The notes under the pieces are model-generated. The model was not told the DNA's origin. It searched no databases and saw only the letters and a program-made list of their open reading frames with translations. A stretch of 64,000 nucleotides of DNA from positions 388,368,001-388,432,000 of the forward strand of contig CM097883.1 in the NCBI GenBank assembly GCA_044892505.1, written 5' to 3'. This document shows, in pieces, positions 12,198 to 64,000 of the stretch. How positions within the stretch are numbered: position 1 is the first letter of the stretch; each line of letters starts with the position of its first letter. A program made the translations under genes and the position numbers. The DNA is from Schmidtea nova (lineage: Eukaryota).

Positions 12198-12494
12198 ACT
12201 CCTTTTCTGGAATGTATCGAGTTGAAAGGAATAATGTTCACAGAAAGTACAATCCCACCGTTAAACAGAGCCCTACGTTGTGGCAGCAATTTAAAAATTC
12301 TACATTTAGAGAACTCTAATATATGCTCGAAAAATTTACTAATTCTAACTTCGGCACTCAAATTAAATATCCTCATGAGAGAACTTCATTTATCCAGCAA
12401 TCGAATGGTGCCTTCTGATGGAATTCAATTAGGATCATTGCTCAAAGTCAACAGGCATATCGAAATACTCGATGTTCGAAATAATTCACTGGGG
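12198..12494 (+). CDS. PPP1R37: LRR protein, PPP1R37/LRRC68-like; first exon visible in the window (internal exon)
   Basis: TTTTAG acceptor, phase 0. Reads TPFLECIELKGIMFTESTIPPLNRALRCGSNLKILHLEN..MRELHLSSN..QLGSLLKVNRHIEILDVRNNSLG, then a GTAATA donor. RNI-like LRRs recalled as matching PPP1R37 (..LHLEN..LKMN..LRELYLADN..QLGNLLKFN..LDLRNN). Confidence 0.8.
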
Positions 12495-15400
12495 GTAATA
12501 TTTTCATTAAAAAATTTATTTAGAAAATTATAATTCATAACTTTCAAAGTACTATAAATAATATCCTAATTATCTTTTGGTTTCACTTTTGGTTTCACTT
12601 TTGATCTCTTTTTGTTTATGTCAATAATTTTCATAATTGCATGACTATAGATATTTTTTCCACAACAATTTTCCACAATACAATTATGAAATGTATCGAT
12701 ACTATAAAGAATGAATAATTTTAATACCTTTGAATGTAGTGAAAAAAATCTCCAACACTAATTGACATTCATCATTCATAATTTATTAAATATATTATGA
12801 CATTCAACATATCAAAATTTGTAAGGAAATCGTAAGCATTAAAGATTTCAAACGTTGGAAATATTTTGATGATTATTTCGAAAGAATTTTATGAGAGTTT
12901 TTAATGATAAAATGGCAATGCTCTTCGATTAATATCCAATCAAAAAGAAAATTATTGACAATATTTGTTTGATTTATTTGGTCATAATACTGCTTAGTTT
13001 TCTATGAACATCATTAATAATAGGTTCATTATTAAAAGAAATTTGCAGAGCTATTGAAATCAAAACATCGTTGACTTCATTTAAATGCGACTTTTACTGA
13101 TTATAGATAAGATATGAAATTCATTTATTTATTTCAAATTAAATAAATCAGAGCAATAAAAAGTTATTTTACTTTTATGGGTTCGATTTTACGGAAAAGG
13201 TTTTTAAGTATCTGTAATATTTGCTTTTTAATCCTCCAACCGCGGGCGGTATTTTAATTTGTATTATATAAAATTTCTGGTTTATTATAATAGTTGTTTT
13301 AACGGAGTATAAAATGAAAAATTTACGAGAAAAGTTGTATTTTATATTAGCGTAGCCGAATAAATTGTATGTAACTATTGATATAAAATTTCTACGTTGC
13401 TCATTGGTAGGAGGGTTAATATTTTTATTAAGTTTTTTCTCATTTTGTTTCAATATTCAAAATTTTGATTAACAATTGAATTTCTTTTAATCTTCTAAAA
13501 ATGCAACTCTCATATACTTTGTTTAATTCGTATGATCTCAATATAATAAATCAAATTTGCTTATTCAATTATTACTCAAGGTCATCTCAAATTTCCCCAA
13601 ATACAACGAATAAATTAATTCTATCCCGTGCTACCTTTGGATAAAAAAACTTATTTTAATTGCGATGAATATTTAATATTTTTACGAGTTTTTTTCAAAC
13701 GAAGTTTTTATTTCAATTTCTTTGACTGAAAATCTATTAATATATTGCAAAATCTTAATTTTTTGTGTAACAATAAATATTTTACAGTGGAAAATTGATT
13801 TGAAAATGACATTAATTGTTTTAATTTGGTAGTTAATTTTCGATTCTTCAAGTTTACCCTATATGCCTGAAAATGACGATGCTGAAATATTTAATTGACA
13901 TAATTGCTTTTAGAATCACGATCTTATAACCCATATAATCAACGGTCATCGTTTCGAAAACAAAATGCATATTAAATTTAACACTGAAATTCAATTCGAA
14001 TTATTTATTAAAATGGATAAATTTACATTTTCAAACGAAATAAGAAATAAATATCAAATGGAGCGTGTATGTGTAAACAATTGTTTATAATATTTTTATT
14101 GTTTGTAGTGTTCGTTATCATGCATAAACATCTTTTTCTTCTATTTTTAAAACGTGGACTATTATGTGCATAACATCTGCTTTAACCATTTTAACGTTAA
14201 ATTTTTTTCAAAAACCGTCTATTTTTCTTTTGTTTTAATTTGATACATTAAACTATTTTGACAAAATAGAACATTATTTTGAATGGAAGTGCGTGGTCAT
14301 GTAGGAATTATAAAAAATTGAAATCTTCAAATTTAATTGTCTTTATTGAAAAAAAATGAAGTTTTATTTTAATAATTTCAAAAATGAACATAATAGCTAA
14401 AGTTCTTTCGAAAAAAATTTTTAGATGTTCCTCAATGATTGTTACAATCAAAAATATTTCTTTTTATCTGTTACAGAGCACAATGTCAGTTTTTTCATTC
14501 AAAGACGAGTTTTCTTGGGATCCACGGTAAAGGGGTTAATGACTATAAATGTCTAATTATATAATTTACCTCTAACATTTTCATATTAACATAAAAACAG
14601 CGTATTCTTTTTTCTAATATATATATGCGTATGTATAATATTTTACGATATCAATATTACCTAATATCACTGATTTTCACTTATTATTGAATAATTTTAA
14701 CTACATATTTAAAAGCTTAAATATTCATAATAGATTTTATAATAAATTGAAAAAATTGTATATATTAGAACCTTGGTTATCCGAAAAATTGAGGTTCTAC
14801 TGCACTTATTACATTAACAGCTTATTTTAAAAGTTCATTTTGCATAAGTTTAATTTTCTTCAAAAAATAATTGGTTAATAAATTTTCATTATGTATAACT
14901 ACAAAACGCACAAAAGGTGTCTGCTAGAGATTATCAATATTTTTTAATTTATTGAAGCGCAAAATTTTAAAATTTCGTTTTTACAAAAAATGTACTTGTC
15001 ATGCTTACAAAATGAACGACTCAAATTTTTAACATTTATATATGTTTACACAAGAAATCTTATCAATTCATAAAAATACAAAAAATTAAAAAATTGTTTG
15101 TTGTAAAAAATTGCGTTGTAAATTTTAGATTTGTAAATTATAATAATAAATATCAACAATATGTCATTTGAAGAGTAATTTATAGGTGTGCCGATGAATT
15201 TAAAATTGAATAAATGACATTAAATAATTTTCTAAAATTATTTAAATGATTAAAAATTAAAAGTAACTTTTATTAATAAATTATTAAGATAATTGGTAAA
15301 GTGACATTAAAGTGTTTGATTAAACATCCCGACAATTTTTATCAATTTCTTTTGAATAGGCTTGAAGGAATTAGTTTAAAATAAAAAAAATTATTACTTC

Positions 15401-20593: not shown

Positions 20594-21195
20594 ATAAATA
20601 AGAGAACACCATTTTTTTAAATATATTAATGCAATATATTTCAACAGCTTAGCTGTCATCATCAGGCTTTCCACAATCTCAATAAAATAAAAATTGATCC
20701 TATTTATACGCTTAATAGTGATTACATAATTACACGTGCATAATCCAATAAAACTTTTATTTACCCTAGTAAAATTAATTAAACACTCTCAAAATGCATG
20801 TAGATATTGCATTTTGTATATTTATTTTTGGATTAAATGATTTTATCATCAAAGCCTCACAATTCACACGTTCATAATAATTTTTAAAACCCCTAGAAAG
20901 TATTTTGAAATTAGAAATATCAATGCTCTTCTTGCAAGTCTTATTATGCTCAATAATGTCAGAGATGACGGGCAGTCTCTCCAATGTATGTGGCATTACA
21001 CCCATTACAAGTAAAACGATATACGAGATCAGAACACAGACCAAATGGCGTCACAGATTTATTACTGACATGTCCCGAACTTTGCAAGACTTAGAAATTA
21101 TTTTAACATTAGTATTTCCAATATATTTTATAATAGATTTTTTAAAATTTACAAATTCCTCAGAAAACGGTAAAACTATAACAGAACCAATGCAA
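20594..21195 (-). mobile_element. Penelope-like element 3' end (GIY-YIG + pseudo-LTR), inverted copy
   Basis: 602-bp near-identical reverse complement of 21479-22080. The ORF track shows the same peptides at 20775-21044 and 21630-21899. Confidence 0.85.
20628..20672 (-). ncRNA. Minimal hammerhead motif, inverted copy
   Basis: Reverse complement of the 22002-22046 motif. Confidence 0.6.
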
Positions 21196-21289
21196 TCATT
21201 CAAGTTACTTTTATTTATTTCATTATTATTTTACAATCAACACCATCATTCATTCCCATAACAACATCACCTGTTTCAATCAAAGGACG

Positions 21290-22080
21290 TCAACTTATTG
21301 TAAATCTATAAATATTATTGATAAATTACTTAAATTACTACAGAATAATGGATATTCAAAATATTTTTTGCAACGAATGGTGAGTGAAACTGTTGATAAG
21401 TCTATTAATAAGTTGAATGTGATTGATGAAAAAATTTCCCCTGGTGTTGATCCGTTTAATACCTCTGACAGTGTTCCTTTGCATTGGTTCTGCTATAGTT
21501 TTACAGTTTTCTGAGGGATTTGTAAATTTTAAAAAATCTATTATAAAATATATTGGAAATACTAATGTTAAAATAATTTCTAAGTCTTGCAAAGTTCGGG
21601 ACATGTCAGTAATAAATCTGTGACGCCATTTGGTCTGTGTTCTGATCTCGTATATCGTTTTACTTGTAATGGGTGTAATGCCACATACATTGGAGAGACT
21701 GCCCGTCATCTCTGACATTATTGAGCATAATAAGACTTGCAAGAAGAGCATTGATATTTCTAATTTCAAAATACTTTCTAGGGGTTTTAAAAATTATTAT
21801 GAACGTGTGAATTGTGAGGCTTTGATGATAAAATCATTTAATCCAAAAATAAATATACAAAATGCAATATCTACATGCATTTTGAGAGTGTTTAATTAAT
21901 TTTACTAGGGTAAATAAAAGTTTTATTGGATTATGCACGTGTAATTATGTAATCACTATTAAGCGTATAAATAGGATCAATTTTTATTTTATTGAGATTG
22001 TGGAAAGCCTGATGATGACAGCTAAGCTGTTGAAATATATTGCATTAATATATTTAAAAAAATGGTGTTCTCTTATTTAT
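21290..22080 (+). mobile_element. Penelope-like element 3' portion (RT C-terminus, GIY-YIG endonuclease, pseudo-LTR)
   Basis: Frameshifted reading: IIDKLLKLLQNNGYSKYFLQR ... SDLVYRFTCNGCNATYIGETARHL ... NFKILSRG..YYERVNCEALMIKSFNPKIN. This is the PLE GIY-YIG pattern (VY.F.C..C...YIG.T.R.L). Confidence 0.85.
22002..22046 (+). ncRNA. Minimal type I hammerhead ribozyme motif (PLE-associated)
   Basis: Parses as aaaGC-CUGAUGA-U-GACAGC(UAA)GCUGUU-GAA-AUAUAU-U-GCauu: canonical core, 6-bp stem II, palindromic stem III and a weak stem I. Predicted cleavage is after 22041. Confidence 0.6.
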
Positions 22081-24371: not shown

Positions 24372-24836
24372 GACATTGGACTGAGTCATATTTGTGATGG
24401 TCTTTGTGAACAATTTCTGCCTCAACCAAGTAAAGATGATGAAAATCATGGACAAGGATTGTTGTGTCTTATATTGTGGAGTAATTCTATTACGTACAAT
24501 GGAATGCCTGCATTGTCGGAGGCCCTTAAAGTGAACAGGAGCTTGCAATCACTTAATTTAGGAAACAATCCAATTTCCAGTGAAGGTATGCATGCTCTTC
24601 ACGATGGTCTTCTAGTCAATCGATCGTTATTACGACTAAGTTTGCCCTGTTGTCGCATTACTTGTGAAGGTGGAGTAGCGATTGCTGAATATTTAGCCGA
24701 CACAAAACAATTAATGCGACTTGATTTACGTGATAATGACATAAAAACAGCTGGATTAATGGCGATTTCTCATTCAATGAAAGTTAATAAAAGTCTTATC
24801 AGATTAGATCTTGATCAAGTATCTAAACGAGATCCG
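24372..24836 (+). CDS. PPP1R37: PPP1R37-like exon (LRR region)
   Basis: ATAG acceptor, phase 0. Reads DIGLSHICDGLCEQ..GLLCLILWSN..LNLGNNPI..ITCEGGVAIAEYLAD..LDLRDNDIKTAGLMAISHSMKVNKSLIRLDLD..DP, then a GTAAGA donor. Continues the previous exon in frame (NNSLG|DIGL). Confidence 0.85.
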
Positions 24837-25599
24837 GTAAGAATTTTTGCAAGTTCCTAATTCTTTATAAAATTCCAAGCGTTCGATTTTCGATAAAATA
24901 TTGAAAGTTAGCATTTGGATTATATTTTTATTAGTAAATTGATAAAAATAGCTTGTACTTATGTTTCATATTTGGACATAATTTATTGATTTTTATAAAA
25001 ACTGCAAGTCAAATGTTTGAGATTAACCATAGAAATGTTTAGCCGTGCCAACAAAAATTAATCATAATAATTTGTGATTTTGGGAAATAAATCATAAACT
25101 GTAAATCATTTATAAAATGTATTGTTTTGTAGCTAGCAGAGTTTATTAAAATATAATAATAAGGTAACAGTGTTAAGCCTTTCTCCGCAATGTTTATTAA
25201 ATAAAATATTTCGATCTTCAAAATATCCTGATAACTCCAATACGAAATTCTTTCCAATTGACTTTCTACTTCTTGCTGGATATTTTCTTTCTCCTGAATT
25301 CTGATTTCATATAAATTATTAAAACAAATTAAGATTCATCGTCGAAATAAATTTTTAAAAAAATTTATGAGAAATTAAATTTTTTTATTAATCTTCAAAA
25401 AATTAGAACATTTTTTAAAAATTGAAAATTTTTATACAAAATTAAAATGTTTTTAAATAAAATGCTATTATAAATTTCTCTAAAATAAATCTTAATTTTG
25501 AATAAAAAATTTTCTCAGTTATTTCAAAGATGACGTTAATCTGGCTAAGATTGAAATTATAAAATATATTGTTTTGGCGTTAGCAGAGTTTATTAAAAT

Positions 25600-26792: not shown

Positions 26793-28273
26793 TTTAATTT
26801 AATATAAATTATTAAAACCAATTAAGATTCATGCTCGAGATAAATTTTAAGAATATTTTAAACTTATTCATTGAATTTAGAAATAATATAGCCACTCTGT
26901 GGTAAAAATTGATCTATTAAAAGTATTCAAGAATGAAATTTATAAAGTACTAAATTATATTTCAAAAAATTTCGCCCTGAAAAACCAAAAGCAACAACCT
27001 CAGATAATGACATAAGAAAAGAGACGAAGTTAGCCATGAAACCCAGTAAACCTATCTCGGTATTAAGCATTTAATAATCAGCGTTTAATTTAAAATATGA
27101 TTACTCACTTGGTCAATGGTAAGTTCTAAATGGTTTATTTTTCAAGAGTGATACCTTGATCGTTGTTTCGTAGTGTTTCTAAAACGTCTTTAGATTTATG
27201 GAACATATAATTATCCATAATAAGAAGTATGATTGGATGCAGTCGAAAATATGGCTTTAATTGCTTATTTATAATATCAATAAAACTTAAACTAATAAGC
27301 ACACCAGTCTTAAACTTATAAGTTATGACACCATTTATAAAAGTAGCACAAATACGACTTTTGTTTCTATTATTATTTTATGGAATTGTCATGTAAGCTT
27401 TTGTATTTTTTGTTGAATATCCGTAGTTTCTTGCAGTAATGTGCCCCCTGACTCATCGTTAAACAAAGACAATGACGTCATCGATGACTCATAACAAAGA
27501 CATACCCCCGCCCGGGAGAAATTTTCTTTATGACTCATCGCGATGACTTATTTCAAATTTAAATTTCCAAAGGTCAAATAATGTCAAACCTTCAAATAAG
27601 GGTATCATTCGAAAGGTCTTTGAGAGGTCTATACAATGGTCATACCCTCGAAGGTTTATGTCTCCAAATTGAAGCTTGTCAGAGATAAACCAAATTCTAA
27701 TCCAATATTCTTAGACATATAGTTCTCGCGTCTATTCTCTCCTTTGGAACCAATGACAATCTTTTCATTTTTAGTTTTAGTTTTCGCAGTTTGTTTGAAA
27801 TGGTTCGTTGTGAAATAGTAAAGTTATGTAATTTTGCTTTTTCAATTTGAAAATCTTTATTTTTGGGTTAAAACGTTGTTGCAAGGAACGATAATGGAAT
27901 GTTTTTGTTTAATTTTGGTTAAAGAATCATTTTTTATACTACTGGTTTCTTTAGCCTTATCGTTTGATGCCATAAAAAATATTCACATTTGTGTTTTTTA
28001 TAATATTTCTGACCGTTTATCTATCAAGAATAAAAATTTATGGAAAATCTTGATATTTTTACTGGTTAATTTTGAAATTACCAGATTGTAAATATCTTTC
28101 GTAAAATCCTTCGCATTTTTCTTAGCATTAAAGGGTCTACAGATTCTCAAAGTTGTTTGAAATTAACCTTATAGTAGGAGAATTTTAATTTTAATTTTTT
28201 TACTTAAAACTTCCAATATCAACAGACCATAAGACTTGAATGAACTTGTCGATATAATTCAAATATATATATA

Positions 28274-28309
28274 TACACACTTGATAAAGGCTGTGCCGAA
28301 ATATTGTGT
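28274..28309 (+). ncRNA. Minimal hammerhead-like motif with a U3-A8 variant core
   Basis: Parses as ACAC-UUGAUAA-A-GGC(UGU)GCC-GAA-AUAU-U-GUGU: 4-bp stem I, 3-bp stem II and palindromic AUAU. The architecture is the same as the motif at 22002. Confidence 0.5.
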
Positions 28310-28363
28310 TATTGTTTATATAAAAAAAAATTTTGATCTATAGTCATTATGAGAATTATTGAT

Positions 28364-28422
<59 letters not shown>

Positions 28423-28629
28423 CATAATTATCTTTTTTCACCTTTGATCTTTTTTTATTATTATTATCAATAATTCTCATAATGACTATAGATCAAAATT
28501 TTTTTTTATAAACAATAACACAATATTTCGGCACAGCCTTTATAAAGGCTGTGCCGAAATATTGTGTTATTGTTTATAAAAAAAAATTTTGATCTATAGT
28601 CATTATGAGAATTATTGATAATAATAATA
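28274..28629. repeat. Hammerhead-bearing short repeat: three copies (+,-,+), a (TA)26 tract and a perfect 174-bp palindrome
   Basis: Copy A 28274-28368 (+), (AT)n 28368-28419, copy B 28421-28542 (-), copy C 28543-28629 (+). Confidence 0.9.
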
Positions 28630-31544
28630 TATATATATAAAATTCAAATTACATATGTAAAGTTGATTAAAAGTTTGTTTAATTTTTTAAAAATATTGTG
28701 TAACTGATAATAATGTAGACCGCCTGTAGACAGGCTTGTCTGTTAGATGGTTGTTTTTAGCAAATTGAATGGAATTATTTTGCGAAACAAAAAATTTTTA
28801 ATTAATTTTATTGTGATTCTACAGAAGTTATAACNNNNNNNNNNNNNNNNNNNNNNNNNNNNNNNNNNNNNNNNNNNNNNNNNNNNNNNNNNNNNNNNNN
28901 NNNNNNNNNNNNNNNNNNNNNNNNNNNNNNNNNNNNNNNNNNNNNNNNNNNNNNNNNNNNNNNNNNNNNNNNNNNNNNNNNNNNNNNNNNNNNNNNNNNN
29001 NNNNNNNNNNNNNNATTTTGTTCGCTTCTAATATTTTTATTTTCAATTTCAAATCATTTCATATTTTTATAATTTTATCAAAATGTTTTTATTGGTACAT
29101 GCATTCTCGGTACCAAAAAAGGCAGTACGGTAAATTCGTGTATCAATTAAAAAATTGACTTATCTTAATAAAATGAAATTATCTGAAATATAAACATTTA
29201 ATTATTGTTATGGACTCTCCGAATGAAACTGGTCATGACTTCGTTCATAAACTCTGCAGCATTAAATTTAATTATATTTCCACATGCATTATTTTCCGAT
29301 TCATGTCAAATTACACCATTCATATATTCAATCTAATGCTCTACGCAGTTCTCTGCTTATAGTAGATTCAAATTGGAAATGACATATTTTCCATTAAGCC
29401 AAAAATTAATTTAATTTAATTTTAATTTTAATTAGAACTAAAAATAGATAAACTATGAGAAATTATTCTACAGTGAATAATAAGAAAACATAATGAACTT
29501 TTCGATATAATATATATATACATATGTAAAGTTGATTATTTCTTATGGCGGTGTTTGTGTGCGCGTGTGTTTCGATGATTCATTTGGTGGATTAGGCATG
29601 ATATCGTCATCACATGCACAACCATCAGCAATACGTTTTATTAATTACCATTAATGCATTGTTAGCTATGTCAACCATCTCACTATTATTATCTTTGGAA
29701 AAAATAAAAAAACGCAATATATTTTTTCTAATTTCAACATATTTTAAAGTTGATAGAAAATAGATGGAAAAATCAAGTTATTGGTCCCTATGTACAATCA
29801 TTTTTTGCAACGGATGCATATAATACTATATTTCAATTTGTCTGTTTACTTAAGAAGTGCGTCATTATAATTTGTTTCAAATTCTTTGATCATTTCACAG
29901 ATTTTTCTGATATCTTATATGTTAATTCATTAATATTTGAATATCAGTTAATACTGGTTAAGTTACAATGTTTTTCATCATTTAAGATTATTTTCCCCCT
30001 TAATAATGCAATATTCAATCTCAACATGTTGAGTTTTAATTTATAATATCTTCACTTAACAAGACAGCTTATGGTTTCCTGGTAAAAGAGTGTTACCCTT
30101 TGAAAATTCAAAAATAAAGTTATGATTGATTAAACAAACAAGCATTCATCTGAACATTCTAGTCAAGTAGCAGAACTCACGAAAAATTCCTATTTAATTA
30201 AAAATAGGTGAAATTCAACATTGTCTTTTGGCAATGATTCTTTTTAAAATGTGTTTTGTGTCCTGATAAATTTATAAATTCCGAGTTACTCCCTTTGACC
30301 TAGGGAGGAGGGCGTTAATTATTTTTCAAATAATCAGCCTCATACAGTATCAGCCAAACTATACTTAATGGTATCATTGAAACCATAAATTATGTTTTCT
30401 GAATAACTTAGCTGTTGTCTGAATCAAAGATACAAATAAAATTTAGTAATCATAAGACAATGAGATTGTAGCGTCTATTGAACAAGCGTTTCTAAAATAT
30501 TTATAGAAGACAGTTAAACTGATTTCACTGAAATTAGGTAGTAATTGACAAAATTCTCAATCAATTCTCCAGGTCATTTTTCATTTTTTGATGATGAAGT
30601 CACATTTTACATTGTCATATTGAGGGGATCAAACACGATAAAAGTTTGGGAACACTTGAGAGATTCGCCTAAATGAAATCATCTGATGTGCTTTTAGTGA
30701 CAACTTTTATTTTGCATGTTAAAGAATTACTTTCTTAAATTTAGATTCACAGTTTTTCTTCAAAAATGGTGCGAATTTAGTGAACCTTTGAGCAGGATTT
30801 TTCACATTAGTTGGATTAAACAAAGTTACCAAATTATTTAACCACCTCATATTGGTCACCATTATATTTTGGGGCATATTAAACCAAAGTTTTATTTTTC
30901 CATATTATCCTTGTAACAAGATAATAAAAGTTCTAATTACTGAAAACGAATGCAGAACGTGTGCGAGGACTTCCTCAAACAGATTGTTTTTTCTATTCAA
31001 AAAGCTGATTAGTGTTTCAAAATTAAATATATTAAATTCTGAATAAATTTATCTGCTTTTGTATTTTAGAAATTATTATATTTTTCTTAGTTTTTCAAAA
31101 AAAAATTGATTTAAAAAGTATAAAATGTATGCTTTTAAAAATTGTTATCAAAATTGTCATTTTAAAAATATAAAACAATGATTCTGTCTATGCGTGGGCG
31201 TGAATGTAAGTTTAGTTAATTTAAATAAAATGCACTGCAAATCATTGATAACTACTGATTTAAAAATTGAATTTACGTGCAATCATATAATCAATAAAAT
31301 GCGAGAATTCATGTTTAAATAATATTTCGGGATTTATAAATTGATTCGTTTATGATTTAAGAAATAAATTTTAATTTCTTCGAAAAAGCACTTGGGATGA
31401 TCTGTAAGATATTTTAAGTTAAACGGTTAAGTTTGCTGACATCAATGAAATCTATTTAAAAAAGAAAAAATCGGCATTAAAAAATTTTTTTAATCAACAT
31501 TTATTATTTATAATAGATATATTATTTTTTATTTATCAATTAAG

Positions 31545-40133: not shown

Positions 40134-40363
40134 ATTAATATCAATAATTCCCATAATGAATGACTATAGATCAAAATTTCTTTAAACAAGTACACAATAT
40201 TTCGGCACAGCCTTGATCAAGTGTGTAGAAAGTCTGTGATAAAGGCTGTGCCGAAATATTGTGTACTTGTTTAAAGAAATTTTGATCTATAGTCATCCAT
40301 TATGGGAATTATTGATATTAATATTAAAAAAGATCAAAGGTGAAATAAAAAGATAATTATGAT
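40134..40363. repeat. Second locus of the hammerhead-bearing repeat: head-to-head pair with 81-bp arms and a 27-bp spacer
   Basis: Arms 40134-40214 and 40242-40322 differ at one position. The right copy extends to 40363 and matches 28421-28540. Confidence 0.9.
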
Positions 40364-61249: not shown

Positions 61250-62485
61250 CTAAATTAATTTAGTGAACTTATGATCCATTTCATTTCGATAAAACTCTTT
61301 CCACAAAATTGCAACTAACTTTGAAAGGATCACGTCACCAACCCTTGCCTCTATGGTGTGAAACATAAAGATCTCATCGTATCTCAAATATCCACATGAG
61401 AATTTCTTTAAAATATCTTTGGCTTCGTCATCCATTTCCTCCGTATCAAGTTTACAGCCTAGCTTTAATAAAGATTTGACATATGATTTCCTGGTCGCGG
61501 GAAAGCAAATCCGTCCAATCCAATTAAGCAAACCAATCAAAAGCACCAAAGTACAAAATATGGACCAAAAACTCAAAAATGTGACGAATATTCGATAATT
61601 CATATTTTGTTGGTGGACGCATTGGGAAAGCGTTTTAAATTTCCCAGCCATATTTAACAGGTCTTTATTATAACAGAGAGTTTCATAAGGGAAATAATCA
61701 GAGGTTAGCCAAGATTCTGGATCGAATATTTTGACGAAAATCTCGTAATAAAAGTCATAAAATCCGTGATGGGCAAATGCTATGACATCCTTCATTATCC
61801 ATATATTGAAAAGCCCGCTGAAAAGGAAGAGACATTTAATGACAAAATACCAGCTGACATAATATGTTGAGCAGTACATGCTAAATGGAGCAAACGGGAT
61901 ATGTTTTTTAATGAATTTCATCATGGGACAAGAAGCTCTATGTTTTGTTATTGTGATGCTGTCGTGGAACTTTTTAGCCACAAGTAGTAATTCCCTTTGT
62001 AATTTTTCTGGAGTTAGCAAGCTAACCTTATCTAGGTGGTAAATGATGGTTTGTGAAACATTTTTCGTAGTGAAAGTACTCCAGAACATTCTCGGAAAGT
62101 AGCTCACCAAACACATTAGACCAAACATCGTCGGGATCCATTGATAATAAGTTATTCGACCTATCTCGTCTAGTCGATCCCATTCTTGATCAGTTTGTGG
62201 AATTGCTGTGACACTAGAGACTGGAATCGTGCCGACGTTCCAGCAATAGGTTGGGTAATATTTGATATCAAACTGGAAGGAAAACGGAACCGTATGTGTC
62301 ATGCATTGAAAGTCATTGTAGTAATAGTTGTAATTTACTGAGAAGAGAAAGCACAAGGCTAGGATGGTGTTCGTAATGATATAAATGAGTTTGTCAAAAT
62401 CATCATGCAAATTGATGGATTTGTAGCTGAATGAACTTTTGATTTGAAATAGATCATTTGCGTGGTTTTTAATATTGCCAAACAT
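61250..62485 (-). CDS. Innexin (invertebrate gap-junction protein), single exon, 411 aa from the first ATG
   Basis: Motifs DDFDKLIY..T, FQC..YCW, YYQWIP..YFPRMFW, Y..K.LFL, FPYETLC..QCV..NM..FLSFW, YLRYDEIF..LW. Four extracellular Cys and four hydrophobic segments. The ORF-track start at 62521 is TTG; the first ATG is at 62485. Confidence 0.93.
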   Translation of the reverse strand: MFGNIKNHANDLFQIKSSFSYKSINLHDDFDKLIYIITNTILALCFLFSVNYNYYYNDFQCMTHTVPFSFQFDIKYYPTYCWNVGTIPVSSVTAIPQTDQEWDRLDEIGRITYYQWIPTMFGLMCLVSYFPRMFWSTFTTKNVSQTIIYHLDKVSLLTPEKLQRELLLVAKKFHDSITITKHRASCPMMKFIKKHIPFAPFSMYCSTYYVSWYFVIKCLFLFSGLFNIWIMKDVIAFAHHGFYDFYYEIFVKIFDPESWLTSDYFPYETLCYNKDLLNMAGKFKTLSQCVHQQNMNYRIFVTFLSFWSIFCTLVLLIGLLNWIGRICFPATRKSYVKSLLKLGCKLDTEEMDDEAKDILKKFSCGYLRYDEIFMFHTIEARVGDVILSKLVAILWKEFYRNEMDHKFTKLI

Positions 62486-64000
62486 TTCTGAATAATATAT
62501 TGAGAAATGTTTATTTTTCAAACTAATTAATATTATATAAAATTAATTGAAATTAATTGAAATTTAAAATAAAAATTTATTATAAAAATATGAGATTTTT
62601 ATTTTAATAAAAAAATTTTAATAAAAAAATTGTTTTATTTATTGATATGTCAATTTATATTTATTTTAAATTTTAATTAAAAAGTTTAAATGTTAATCTA
62701 TAATTTGCTTATATTTAATTATCATTAACATTTTTAATTATTTTTCAATTTTTCTCTTTTATTTTATAATTTCTGATATTTTCATGCTTTATGATTGTAA
62801 ATCAAAATTATTTCATTGCAACACGACTTTTAAGAACTTCCTCATTTCCAGTCTCAGTTTTTGTAAAGACTAATAAAAGCAAATTACAAAGTTAATGTTT
62901 CAATGCAAATACTTTAGAAATTGTCTTAAAATATGAAAAATTTACTTTGTAGTTAATATAATAATACTTACTATTTAAAATAAAAAAAGTTGAAATATTA
63001 AAGTTTTTTAGTTGAAAATAATTTTAAAATATTAAAAAACATTTCAATGTTTTAAAATTATTTTTAAAATTTTTAGAAATAATAAATTGCAATATTGTTA
63101 ATTTATTTATTTTAATAAATGGGGTATAATATTTTAAATAATTAGTCGGTATTTACATTTAAAAGTTTTGTAATTAATTTTCAATAGATTAATGAATTTC
63201 AAAAAATTAAATAATTTCAAAAAATTAATTTTTTTTTGTTTTTATATTTATTTATTTTGTCATGCATCTATTTTCATTTTCATTTCTTTTGTAAATTGAA
63301 TTCATTTAAATGTAAAGTCATTTTTAAAGTTTTATCTTCAAAAAGAAGTAAAAATTAAGAATTTCGACAATTCTTCCTCACTGAGTCTGTGTCTGAGAAT
63401 CTGCTCTGTCTGCTTTCTGTTTAATCATTTATATTTTCATTTCCTTGGTGATATCGGAGTGCTTCATTTAAATAATCGATTAAACTCAATATTTTTTTTC
63501 AGTTTCCTTTGTATGATCTGTCTAGTTATTATTTTTTTCCATTGCTTCGAACCTTTTTGTTTAATTTTCTAGAAGCTTAATAAAATTCACTAAAATTCAG
63601 CATTGATTTAGTATTTATGACATCCAAGAAAAAGACTTATTTATTAAATTCAATTATTCGCTTCTCAACAATTTATAGCAAGAAACTTGAGATAAGAGAA
63701 AATTACCGAAAAAGATTAATTGCAAACTCTTATATTTAAATGAACTAATTGAGAAAAAAAGTGACACTACCAAAATGAGCAATTGCTATTGCAAGCCAAT
63801 ACGAAACATTAGTTTAGCAATTTTTATGGAAGAATTCGTTAATCAAATTAAAGGAAAATTTGTTGACTTTCACATTTTATTGTTTTAAAAAACAATTTCT
63901 AACATTTTCTGTGATATTTTCAAAAATAAATTTTTTAATTTACTGAGTAAATAACCCATGTATCAGAATTATATATTTTCGATTAACTTATATTGAAACC

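What the first reader, a model, noticed from the sequence alone, without database searches (positions are those of the whole stretch)
28274..28368. Short repeat family that starts with a hammerhead-like motif carrying a compensated U3-A8 core
Seen: directly after a TA run, ACAC-UUGAUAA-A-GGC(UGU)GCC-GAA-AUAU-U-GUGU, followed by an AT-rich tail with no ORF. It shares the extra nucleotide after A9, the AU palindrome in helix III and U17 with the PLE motif at 22002, but has no other similarity to it. Across five copies in the window the consensus core is TTGATAA. Known: positions 3 and 8 form a Watson-Crick pair in the active hammerhead, and U3-A8 is a tolerated natural covariant of C3-G8. Inference: a non-autonomous, ribozyme-tagged mini-retroelement (PLE-mobilised or retrozyme-like) that standard CUGANGA searches would miss. 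This is the best candidate for an undescribed system here. AT-biased drift producing both changes by chance is the alternative.
Basis: partly seen in the sequence, partly recalled or inferred. Interest (0 to 1): 0.75.

Follow-up and report, generated by a model that had tools for sequence, protein, structure and literature searches.

The report
Penelope retrotransposon ribozyme leaving cut-site scars
The repeat is the short end piece of a very abundant Penelope-like retrotransposon that carries an already known variant of the hammerhead ribozyme, and a few hundred genomic copies begin at the predicted cut site, which likely records the ribozyme cutting its RNA inside the animal.

Summary
The motif is real, but it is neither a separate mini-element nor a new core. 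It is the terminal repeat (pLTR) of an autonomous Penelope-like element (PLE). Intact copies carry an 865-aa RT + GIY-YIG ORF between two such motifs 2,767 bp apart. The 'tail without ORF' holds that ORF's start codon (28349). The genome has 34,896 exact U3-A8 motifs among 37,608 with a free core. U3-A8, the extra base after A9 and the palindromic helix III are already published for Schistosoma PLE hammerheads (PMC4209133). Three subfamilies keep the motif unchanged up to the last base of stem I, except U17/C17, and diverge from the next base on. This argues against drift. No C3-G8 subfamily was found, so covariation inside the lineage is not shown. New here: head-to-head junctions near the ribozyme pile up at the predicted cut. 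35 of 46 (subfamily A) and 24 of 48 (B) lie within one base of it (hand tallies). That is likely a DNA record of cleaved RNA used as template, in roughly 1-2% of insertions. No RNA data or assay were available.

The parts
28273..28370 (+). Solo short copy of the PLE pLTR (no tail), subfamily A, in a (TA)n tract
   Evidence: 96.9% to the pLTR of intact element L031; 5' end at -33 relative to the cut
28277..28309 (+). Minimal type I hammerhead: 4-bp stem I, core U3 U4 G5 A6 U7 A8 A9, extra A, 3-bp stem II with G10.1-C11.1, GAA, palindromic AUAU, U17; predicted cut 28305/28306
28349..28370 (+). Start codon and first codons (MRIIDNN) of the PLE RT-endonuclease ORF
   Evidence: same frame opens the 865-aa ORF in L031 and L032
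28369..28418 (.). (TA)n microsatellite, likely the integration target
   Evidence: flank symmetry in pairs
28418..28543 (-). Tailed arm of a head-to-head pLTR pair; ends at ORF +60, begins at A6 of the core
28542..28629 (+). Short (untailed) arm of the same pair; begins at A6 of the core
40134..40227 (-). Short arm of a second head-to-head pair, subfamily B; core has C at position 8 (likely a mutation after insertion)
40237..40363 (+). Tailed arm of the second pair, begins at U4
12553..12659 (-). Old subfamily C remnant (ATG region and tail); no recognisable ribozyme in this copy

Best explanation
The repeat is the pLTR of an autonomous, recently amplified Penelope-like retrotransposon, and its U3-A8 minimal hammerhead is likely a working but slow ribozyme that cuts a small share of the element's RNA after U17. 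Shown: the element (pLTR, 865-aa RT + GIY-YIG ORF, pLTR), the copy number, the conserved motif, two 3' ends (ORF +15 to +27 and +60), two 5'-end peaks (-36 to -33, and 0/+1 relative to the cut), and flanks that form one continuous AT microsatellite. Inferred: the RNA starts about 36 nt before the cut. The element's protein nicks an AT microsatellite on both strands and starts reverse transcription at two internal sites in the first codons of the ORF, as shown in vitro for the anole element PAc. On the 5' copy of the pLTR both cDNAs run off the RNA 5' end after 90-140 nt and are joined head to head, giving tens of thousands of solo or paired ribozyme stubs. Most templates were uncut. In roughly 1-2% of events the RNA had already been cut, so both arms start at the first base after U17. 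Cleavage probably needs a dimer or the element's protein, because helix III is only a 4-nt palindrome.
For: Autonomous partner: L031 and L032 have the 865-aa ORF and differ at 1 of 2,767 bases. Pfam RVT_1 E 1.3e-7. 28 homologues, with the aligned ones showing RT, Cys linker and GIY-YIG-type motifs. Copies: 45,471 exact 21-mers; 34,896 exact U3-A8/H17 motifs among 37,608 with a free core. Constraint: majority bases of subfamilies A (n=71), B (19) and C (37) are identical from -33 to +3 except N17 (C 18, U 18 of 37 in C). A and C differ at 8 of the next 12 columns. In 100 listed of 209 old copies, U3 is 100/100 and A8 97/100 (the pattern allowed only C/U and A/G there). Four DNA runs from two coded organisms show no variant of 1% or more at positions 3 or 8. 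Ends: in the evenly spaced 600 kb, 26 of 40 arms start at -38 to -20, 8 extend 80 nt or more upstream, 2 start at 0/+1, and 4 are other alignment breaks. Loose ends pile at -36 to -33 in all four runs. One template per pair: 49 of 61 pairs have exactly one tail. 49 of 52 classified pairs share a subfamily (shuffled mean 26 of 55). 12 of 55 pairs are identical over the compared segment, against 1.7 shuffled. Cut-site pile: 411 junctions in A (control 3) and 66 in B (control 1). By hand tally of those listed, duplicates removed, 35 of 46 in A lie at -1/0/+1 (15 at 0), and 24 of 48 in B (18 at 0, three of them ambiguous with -1). P for the 0 pile is 3e-4 and 9e-6 under the stricter null. 15 of 15 subfamily A junction loci fetched have one tailed and one short arm. 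Target: 35 of 44 pairs fit one continuous microsatellite, none conflict, 9 have no clear repeat on at least one side.
Against: No RNA data and no assay, so transcription, the start site and cleavage are all inferred from DNA. Frangieh et al. found no RNA-seq reads ending at the PAc cut. Stem II (3 bp, 3-nt loop) is far smaller than the 7-8 bp in Schistosoma PLE motifs. ViennaRNA cofolding of two copies swapped stems I and II between the strands but did not form the dimeric helix III. For B, the three-position window is only P=0.05 under the stricter null. There is a shoulder at +3 to +5 (6 of 20 distinct loci in the first 27 Mb of C1), and my downstream control was swamped by one satellite (36 of 50 listed loci). 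Tallies are by hand on the first 50 listed loci; only 30 loci were checked by script. I tested no other element position for similar hot spots. One search is partly circular: arms were anchored on stem II and subfamilies were defined by bases +4 to +11.
Confidence: 0.7

Rival explanations
1. Same PLE and same conserved motif, but the motif does not cleave in vivo. It is kept as a structure or as part of the internal promoter or protein-binding site. The junction pile at 0/+1 comes from reverse transcriptase pausing at the folded core, or from end-joining preferences.
For: Stem II shows no covariation: every base, including loop bases and N7, is kept across subfamilies, as a DNA or protein-binding site would be. 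PAc hammerhead mutants did not affect insertion in vitro and no RNA-seq ends were seen. Shoulder at +3 to +5.
Against: Conservation stops exactly at the last base of stem I, and the only variable position (17) varies within the NUH rule. Structure-induced stops are expected 3' of a helix (+4), not after stem I's 3' strand has been copied (general knowledge). The perfect palindrome at -7 to -2, which should favour joining, collects far fewer junctions than 0/+1 (4 versus 29 of 46 in A). The pile recurs in B, whose downstream sequence differs.
Confidence: 0.2
2. One reading: a separate non-autonomous, ribozyme-tagged mini-retroelement or retrozyme that replicates as its own unit.
For: About four fifths of arms are short. 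A head-to-tail joint of the 135-bp unit (730 back to 596) has depth 1081 in run X2 and 50 in X4, so a few tandem units exist.
Against: Short copies match the pLTR of intact autonomous elements at 95-100% and end at the same two ORF positions as long copies. Their 5' ends are ragged and pairs are head to head. No head-to-tail unit was found in any of the 205 loci held. Retrozymes are defined as tandem arrays.
Confidence: 0.06
3. The 0/+1 ends come from splicing: position 0 is a GU donor and an AG lies at the end of the tail, so a 103-nt intron RNA would be the template.
For: GU at 0/+1, and AG at L031 730-731 next to the long 3' end. PLEs are known to have 5' introns.
Against: The donor (GUGUUA or GUGUAC) fits the consensus poorly. 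Such an intron would remove the ATG, which subfamilies A, B and C all keep, and the next in-frame Met lies hundreds of codons downstream.
Confidence: 0.04

Closest known systems
Minimal type I hammerheads of metazoan PLEs, including the U3-A8 variant of Schistosoma mansoni (Cervera and de la Pena 2014, PMC4209133)
   Same: In pLTRs about 3 kb apart around an RT ORF; U3-A8 core; extra base between 9 and 10.1; G10.1-C11.1; palindromic 15.2-16.2; 4-5 bp helix I; mostly single copies or opposite-strand pairs.
   Different: Helix II is 3 bp here against 7-8 bp there. About 35,000 near-identical copies here against about 1,300 heterogeneous hits. The S. mediterranea PLE motif in their supplement has a canonical core and another stem II. 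Whether the two U3-A8 lineages are related was not tested.
PAc (Poseidon of Anolis carolinensis; Frangieh et al. 2024, PMC11167929)
   Same: pLTR runs into the ORF; two 3' ends in the first codons give the tail; AT-rich targets; hammerhead in the pLTR.
   Different: PAc has C3-G8 and its ORF starts inside the ribozyme. Here the ATG is 43 nt after the cut in the window copy, and the protein has a Cys-rich linker. No PAc RNA-seq reads ended at the cut; here genomic junctions pile there.
C-terminal EN+ PLE clades with a Cys linker: Neptune, Nematis, Hydra (Craig et al. 2021, PMC8557442)
   Same: Single ORF under 3 kb, 5' truncation, inverted copies, 30-40 bp tail, microsatellite targets. DKT and a CxCx5C linker as described for the Hydra clade.
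   Different: The EN shows Cys and His residues that look like the CCHH motif, which the Hydra clade lacks, and no RWK motif is seen. The clade is unresolved; no tree with named references could be built.
Non-LTR retrozymes of animals (bioRxiv 10.64898/2026.07.22.740005)
   Same: Type I hammerhead, derived from PLE pLTRs.
   Different: Retrozymes are head-to-tail arrays. Here copies are solo or head to head, with only a trace of tandem units.

Membership tests
Penelope-like element, C-terminal EN+ | Single ORF with RT followed by a GIY-YIG endonuclease | tested here: met
   865-aa ORF; RVT_1 hit; IVY...YIGET...RLNEH motif seen directly, and two homologues carry PF01541. Pfam did not score the EN of this protein itself.
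Penelope-like element, C-terminal EN+ | Partial tandem forming pLTRs | tested here: met
   L031-L034, motifs 2,759-2,767 bp apart
Penelope-like element, C-terminal EN+ | Inverted 5'-truncated copy and a 30-40 bp tail on one end | tested here: met
   49 of 61 pairs have one tail; 3' ends are bimodal
Penelope-like element, C-terminal EN+ | RT groups with PLE/TERT in a tree | not tested
   no named reference sequences were available
Minimal PLE hammerhead (type I) | Core Y3 U4 G5 A6 N7 R8 A9 with a 3-8 Watson-Crick pair, G12 A13 A14, A15.1-U16.1, H17 | tested here: met
   34,896 of 37,608 exact; kept in three subfamilies
Minimal PLE hammerhead (type I) | Stems I and II, extra base before G10.1-C11.1, palindromic helix III | tested here: met
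   stem II is unusually short
Minimal PLE hammerhead (type I) | Covariation of stems and of the 3-8 pair | tested here: inconclusive
   No stem variation between subfamilies. C3-G8 occurs in only 6 places with this stem II (one a junction artefact; two have a U3-A8 partner arm). Other PLE families in the genome use C3-G8.
Minimal PLE hammerhead (type I) | Self-cleavage after N17 | not testable with these tools
   Indirect support only: junction pile at 0/+1. No RNA run listed.
Hydra clade of PLEs | DKT motif and CxCx5C linker | tested here: met
   SDKTNRL and CLCRSTTRC
Hydra clade of PLEs | RWK motif present and CCHH absent from the EN | tested here: not met
   no RWK; CQKC...EH...EHW retained, read by eye
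Non-LTR retrozyme | Head-to-tail arrays of hammerhead units | tested here: not met
   0 in 205 loci; only a minor joint in DNA runs
Non-LTR retrozyme | Circular RNA | not testable with these tools
   no RNA holder listed

The most novel reading that the evidence does not exclude
The genome itself records PLE hammerhead cleavage in vivo. Several hundred integrations start at the scissile bond of a U3-A8 ribozyme with only a 3-bp stem II, and both arms of each pair start there. So one sense RNA, cut or uncut, templates both cDNAs, and the masses of solo minimal hammerheads in animal genomes are run-off products from the RNA 5' end. Mapping junctions would then give an assay-free read-out of which PLE ribozymes cut in the germ line and how often.
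Probability: 0.55. Interest if true: 0.62.

Novelty: new member of a known kind. Interest (0 to 1): 0.42.

Why it matters
The U3-A8 core and the element type are known. What would matter is the junction signal. The papers read here say that in vivo evidence for PLE hammerhead cleavage is lacking (PMC4209133), that its function is unclear (PMC8557442), and that RNA-seq showed no ends at the cut (PMC11167929). A pile of integration junctions at the cut, in two subfamilies, would be such evidence and could be computed for any high-copy PLE. It would also favour a sense template for head-to-head junctions, where PMC3846280 argued for self-priming on an antisense template. With about 35,000 near-identical copies and intact ORFs, this family is a good system for testing PLE integration and U3-A8 activity.

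Tried and rejected
Rfam scan of the window: no hit. DNA similarity search of the own genome: empty because common words are skipped, so uninformative. RNA evidence: no RNA holder listed, which says nothing about expression. C3-G8 ancestor inside the family: 3 doubles against 0.11 expected from singles looked promising. But the three complete ones are old, diverged copies, two with a U3-A8 partner arm, and 0 of 100 listed old-subfamily copies have C3, so I rejected it as a subfamily. An extended stem I (13 bp with bulges) can be drawn for subfamily A but is not kept in B or C. Microsatellites made by the RT from its own AAU repeats: rejected, because either arm can be followed by either orientation and the two flanks complement each other. 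Downstream junction control: swamped by a satellite. Dimer cofold did not give helix III. Earlier scan findings: none by sequence or by words. Lunse et al. 2017 (small PLE hammerheads cleaving as dimers) is not held; it may already cover very short stem II or U3-A8 variants. One supplementary file of PMC4209133 could not be searched. Paper searches listed no paper whose title, abstract start or passages I read describe junctions at the cut. The library lacks most subscription papers, so this is not proof of absence.

Full report
Observation. The motif lies at 28277-28309 as described, with U3 at 28281, A8 at 28286 and U17 at 28305. It folds into stems I and II. Five copies are in the window, but only one has the full TTGATAA. 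Two are cut by a shared inversion junction, one reads GTGATAA at a junction and one TTGATCA. Rfam finds nothing. The host is an unnamed animal-sized genome of 1.25 Gb; the window is 27% GC. I did not identify it.

What it is. A 21-base piece has 45,471 exact matches in the genome, with 0 for the control. Some matches lie 2,759-2,767 bases apart in the same direction. [quoted passage not shown] Two such copies differ at 1 of 2,767 bases, so amplification is recent. The ORF starts inside the repeat, at window 28349, so the 'tail with no ORF' is the 5' UTR and first codons. 28 homologues were found, the best at 45% identity. An alignment with 13 of them shows DKT, a Cys-rich linker and Cys/His residues in the endonuclease. 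This is a C-terminal EN+ Penelope-like element; its clade is unresolved.

Is the ribozyme motif under constraint? 34,896 of 37,608 copies with a free core are exact U3-A8/H17. That alone only reflects recent copying. The better test is between subfamilies. A diverged remnant at 12553-12659 led to an older subfamily C. Majority bases in A, B and C (n = 71, 19, 37) agree from -33 to +3 relative to the cut, except position 17 (C or U, both allowed). A and C differ at 8 of the 12 columns from +4 on (partly circular, because arms were anchored on stem II and subfamilies were defined by +4 to +11). Among 100 listed of 209 old copies U3 is 100 and A8 is 97. DNA contigs of two coded organisms show a further downstream variant with C17, and no variant of 1% or more at positions 3 or 8. 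In 600 kb of evenly spaced genome the descriptor gave 18 U3-A8 hits, all this family, 5 C3-G8 hits from other families, 2 U3-G8 and none for three other cores. Covariation inside the lineage was not shown. C3 occurs 65 times, G8 66 times and both together 3 times. The doubles are old copies, two with a U3-A8 partner arm. Other PLE families here, including the one at 22009, use C3-G8.

How the short copies arise. In the evenly spaced sample 26 of 40 arms start at -38 to -20, 8 reach further upstream, 2 start at 0/+1 and 4 are other breaks. 3' ends fall at ORF +15 to +27 or at +60. Loose ends in all four runs pile at -36 to -33. Of 61 head-to-head pairs, 49 have exactly one tail. 49 of 52 classified pairs share a subfamily, and 12 of 55 are identical over the compared segment against 1.7 shuffled. 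Flanks fit one continuous microsatellite in 35 of 44 pairs, with no conflict. With the two internal RT start sites shown for PAc, the simplest reading is one RNA, two primers, and both cDNAs running off a defined 5' end. The start site and the single template are inferred.

The cut-site signal. If cut RNA is sometimes copied, arms should start at 28306-equivalent. A junction pattern that allows ends from +3 back to -11 found 411 places in subfamily A (control 3) and 66 in B (control 1). I tallied by hand the furthest 5' extent at each of the 50 listed places, then removed one nested match and local duplicates. A (n=46): 0 has 15, +1 14, -1 6, -2 to -4 5, -6/-7 4, +3 2. B (n=48): 0 has 18 (three ambiguous with -1), +1 4, -1 2, -2/-3 7, -6/-7 4, -9/-10 7, +2/+3 6. 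Under a null in which both arms end together at a uniform position, P for the pile at 0 is 3e-4 (A) and 9e-6 (B). For the three-base window it is 1e-7 and 0.05. Scripts reproduced the tally on 15 loci of each set. All 15 A loci have one tailed and one short arm; 12 of 15 B loci have the element body on both arms. A search for ends further downstream was swamped by one satellite (36 of 50 listed). Pooling distinct loci in the first 27 Mb of C1 gave 11 of 20 at -1 to +1, 6 at +3 to +5 and 3 upstream: an edge at the cut with a trail downstream. About 350 such events against tens of thousands of arms gives roughly 1-2%, a rough extrapolation. Pausing, end-joining bias and splicing are rivals. No RNA run was available.

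Comparison. PMC4209133 (read: parts 1-2 of 4, and a term search of two supplements) reports U3-A8 in S. mansoni PLE minimal hammerheads, about 1,300 hits, with the extra base, the palindrome, opposite-strand pairs and low in vitro activity. PMC3088659 (passages) reports natural U3-A8 covariation and cites earlier in vitro activity. PMC11167929 (parts 1-2 of 4) gives the tail mechanism, protein-assisted cleavage and no RNA-seq ends at the cut. PMC8557442 (passages and section 11) gives the standard anatomy and the clade motifs. PMC3846280 (passages) describes the same inverted pLTR with tail and proposes antisense self-priming. The retrozyme preprint (part 1 of 5), PMC6765202 (passages) and PMC13725137 (passages) were also seen. 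Hammerhead numbering, the NUH rule and RT pausing behaviour are from my own knowledge.

Verdict. The likely in vivo cleavage record in the junctions is the part worth a specialist's time. Interest 0.42.

Noticed in passing
window 20700-22080: A second PLE family, decayed, with an inverted copy of its 3' end at about 20700-21260 and a canonical C3-G8 hammerhead at 22009. Its endonuclease end is 45% identical to this family's over 40 residues; further copies in L104 and L115.
   Followed up: partly
window 28257-28265 and 28641-28649: A 9-bp direct repeat flanks the whole compound insertion outside both TA runs; possibly a target duplication. 29492-29536 resembles an empty version of the site.
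   Followed up: partly
L112:1768+, L136:4080+, L143:1552+: Another repeat family with a C3-G8 minimal hammerhead of the same build (extra A, 6-bp stem II, palindromic helix III); no ORF linked in these loci.
   Followed up: no
L128:8250+: Canonical type I hammerhead (6-bp stem I, 4-bp stem II), possibly from a retrozyme.
   Followed up: no
L102:6782+: Hammerhead-like motif with U3 and G8, about 460 bases after another PLE endonuclease; either decayed or a wobble variant.
   Followed up: no
G000:C1:3074734-3152481: Satellite-like cluster with at least 36 copies of one palindromic junction of this family.
   Followed up: no
L031:596-730 in runs X2 and X4: Head-to-tail joint of the 135-bp short unit (depth 1081 and 50): a few tandem units, a possible nascent retrozyme or satellite.
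   Followed up: no
window 61250-62542 (-): Uninterrupted 430-aa ORF that looks like an innexin by recalled motifs; not searched.
   Followed up: no
window 12198-12533 and 24372-24860 (+): Exons of a leucine-rich-repeat gene, by eye; several transposon remnants lie between and after them.
   Followed up: no
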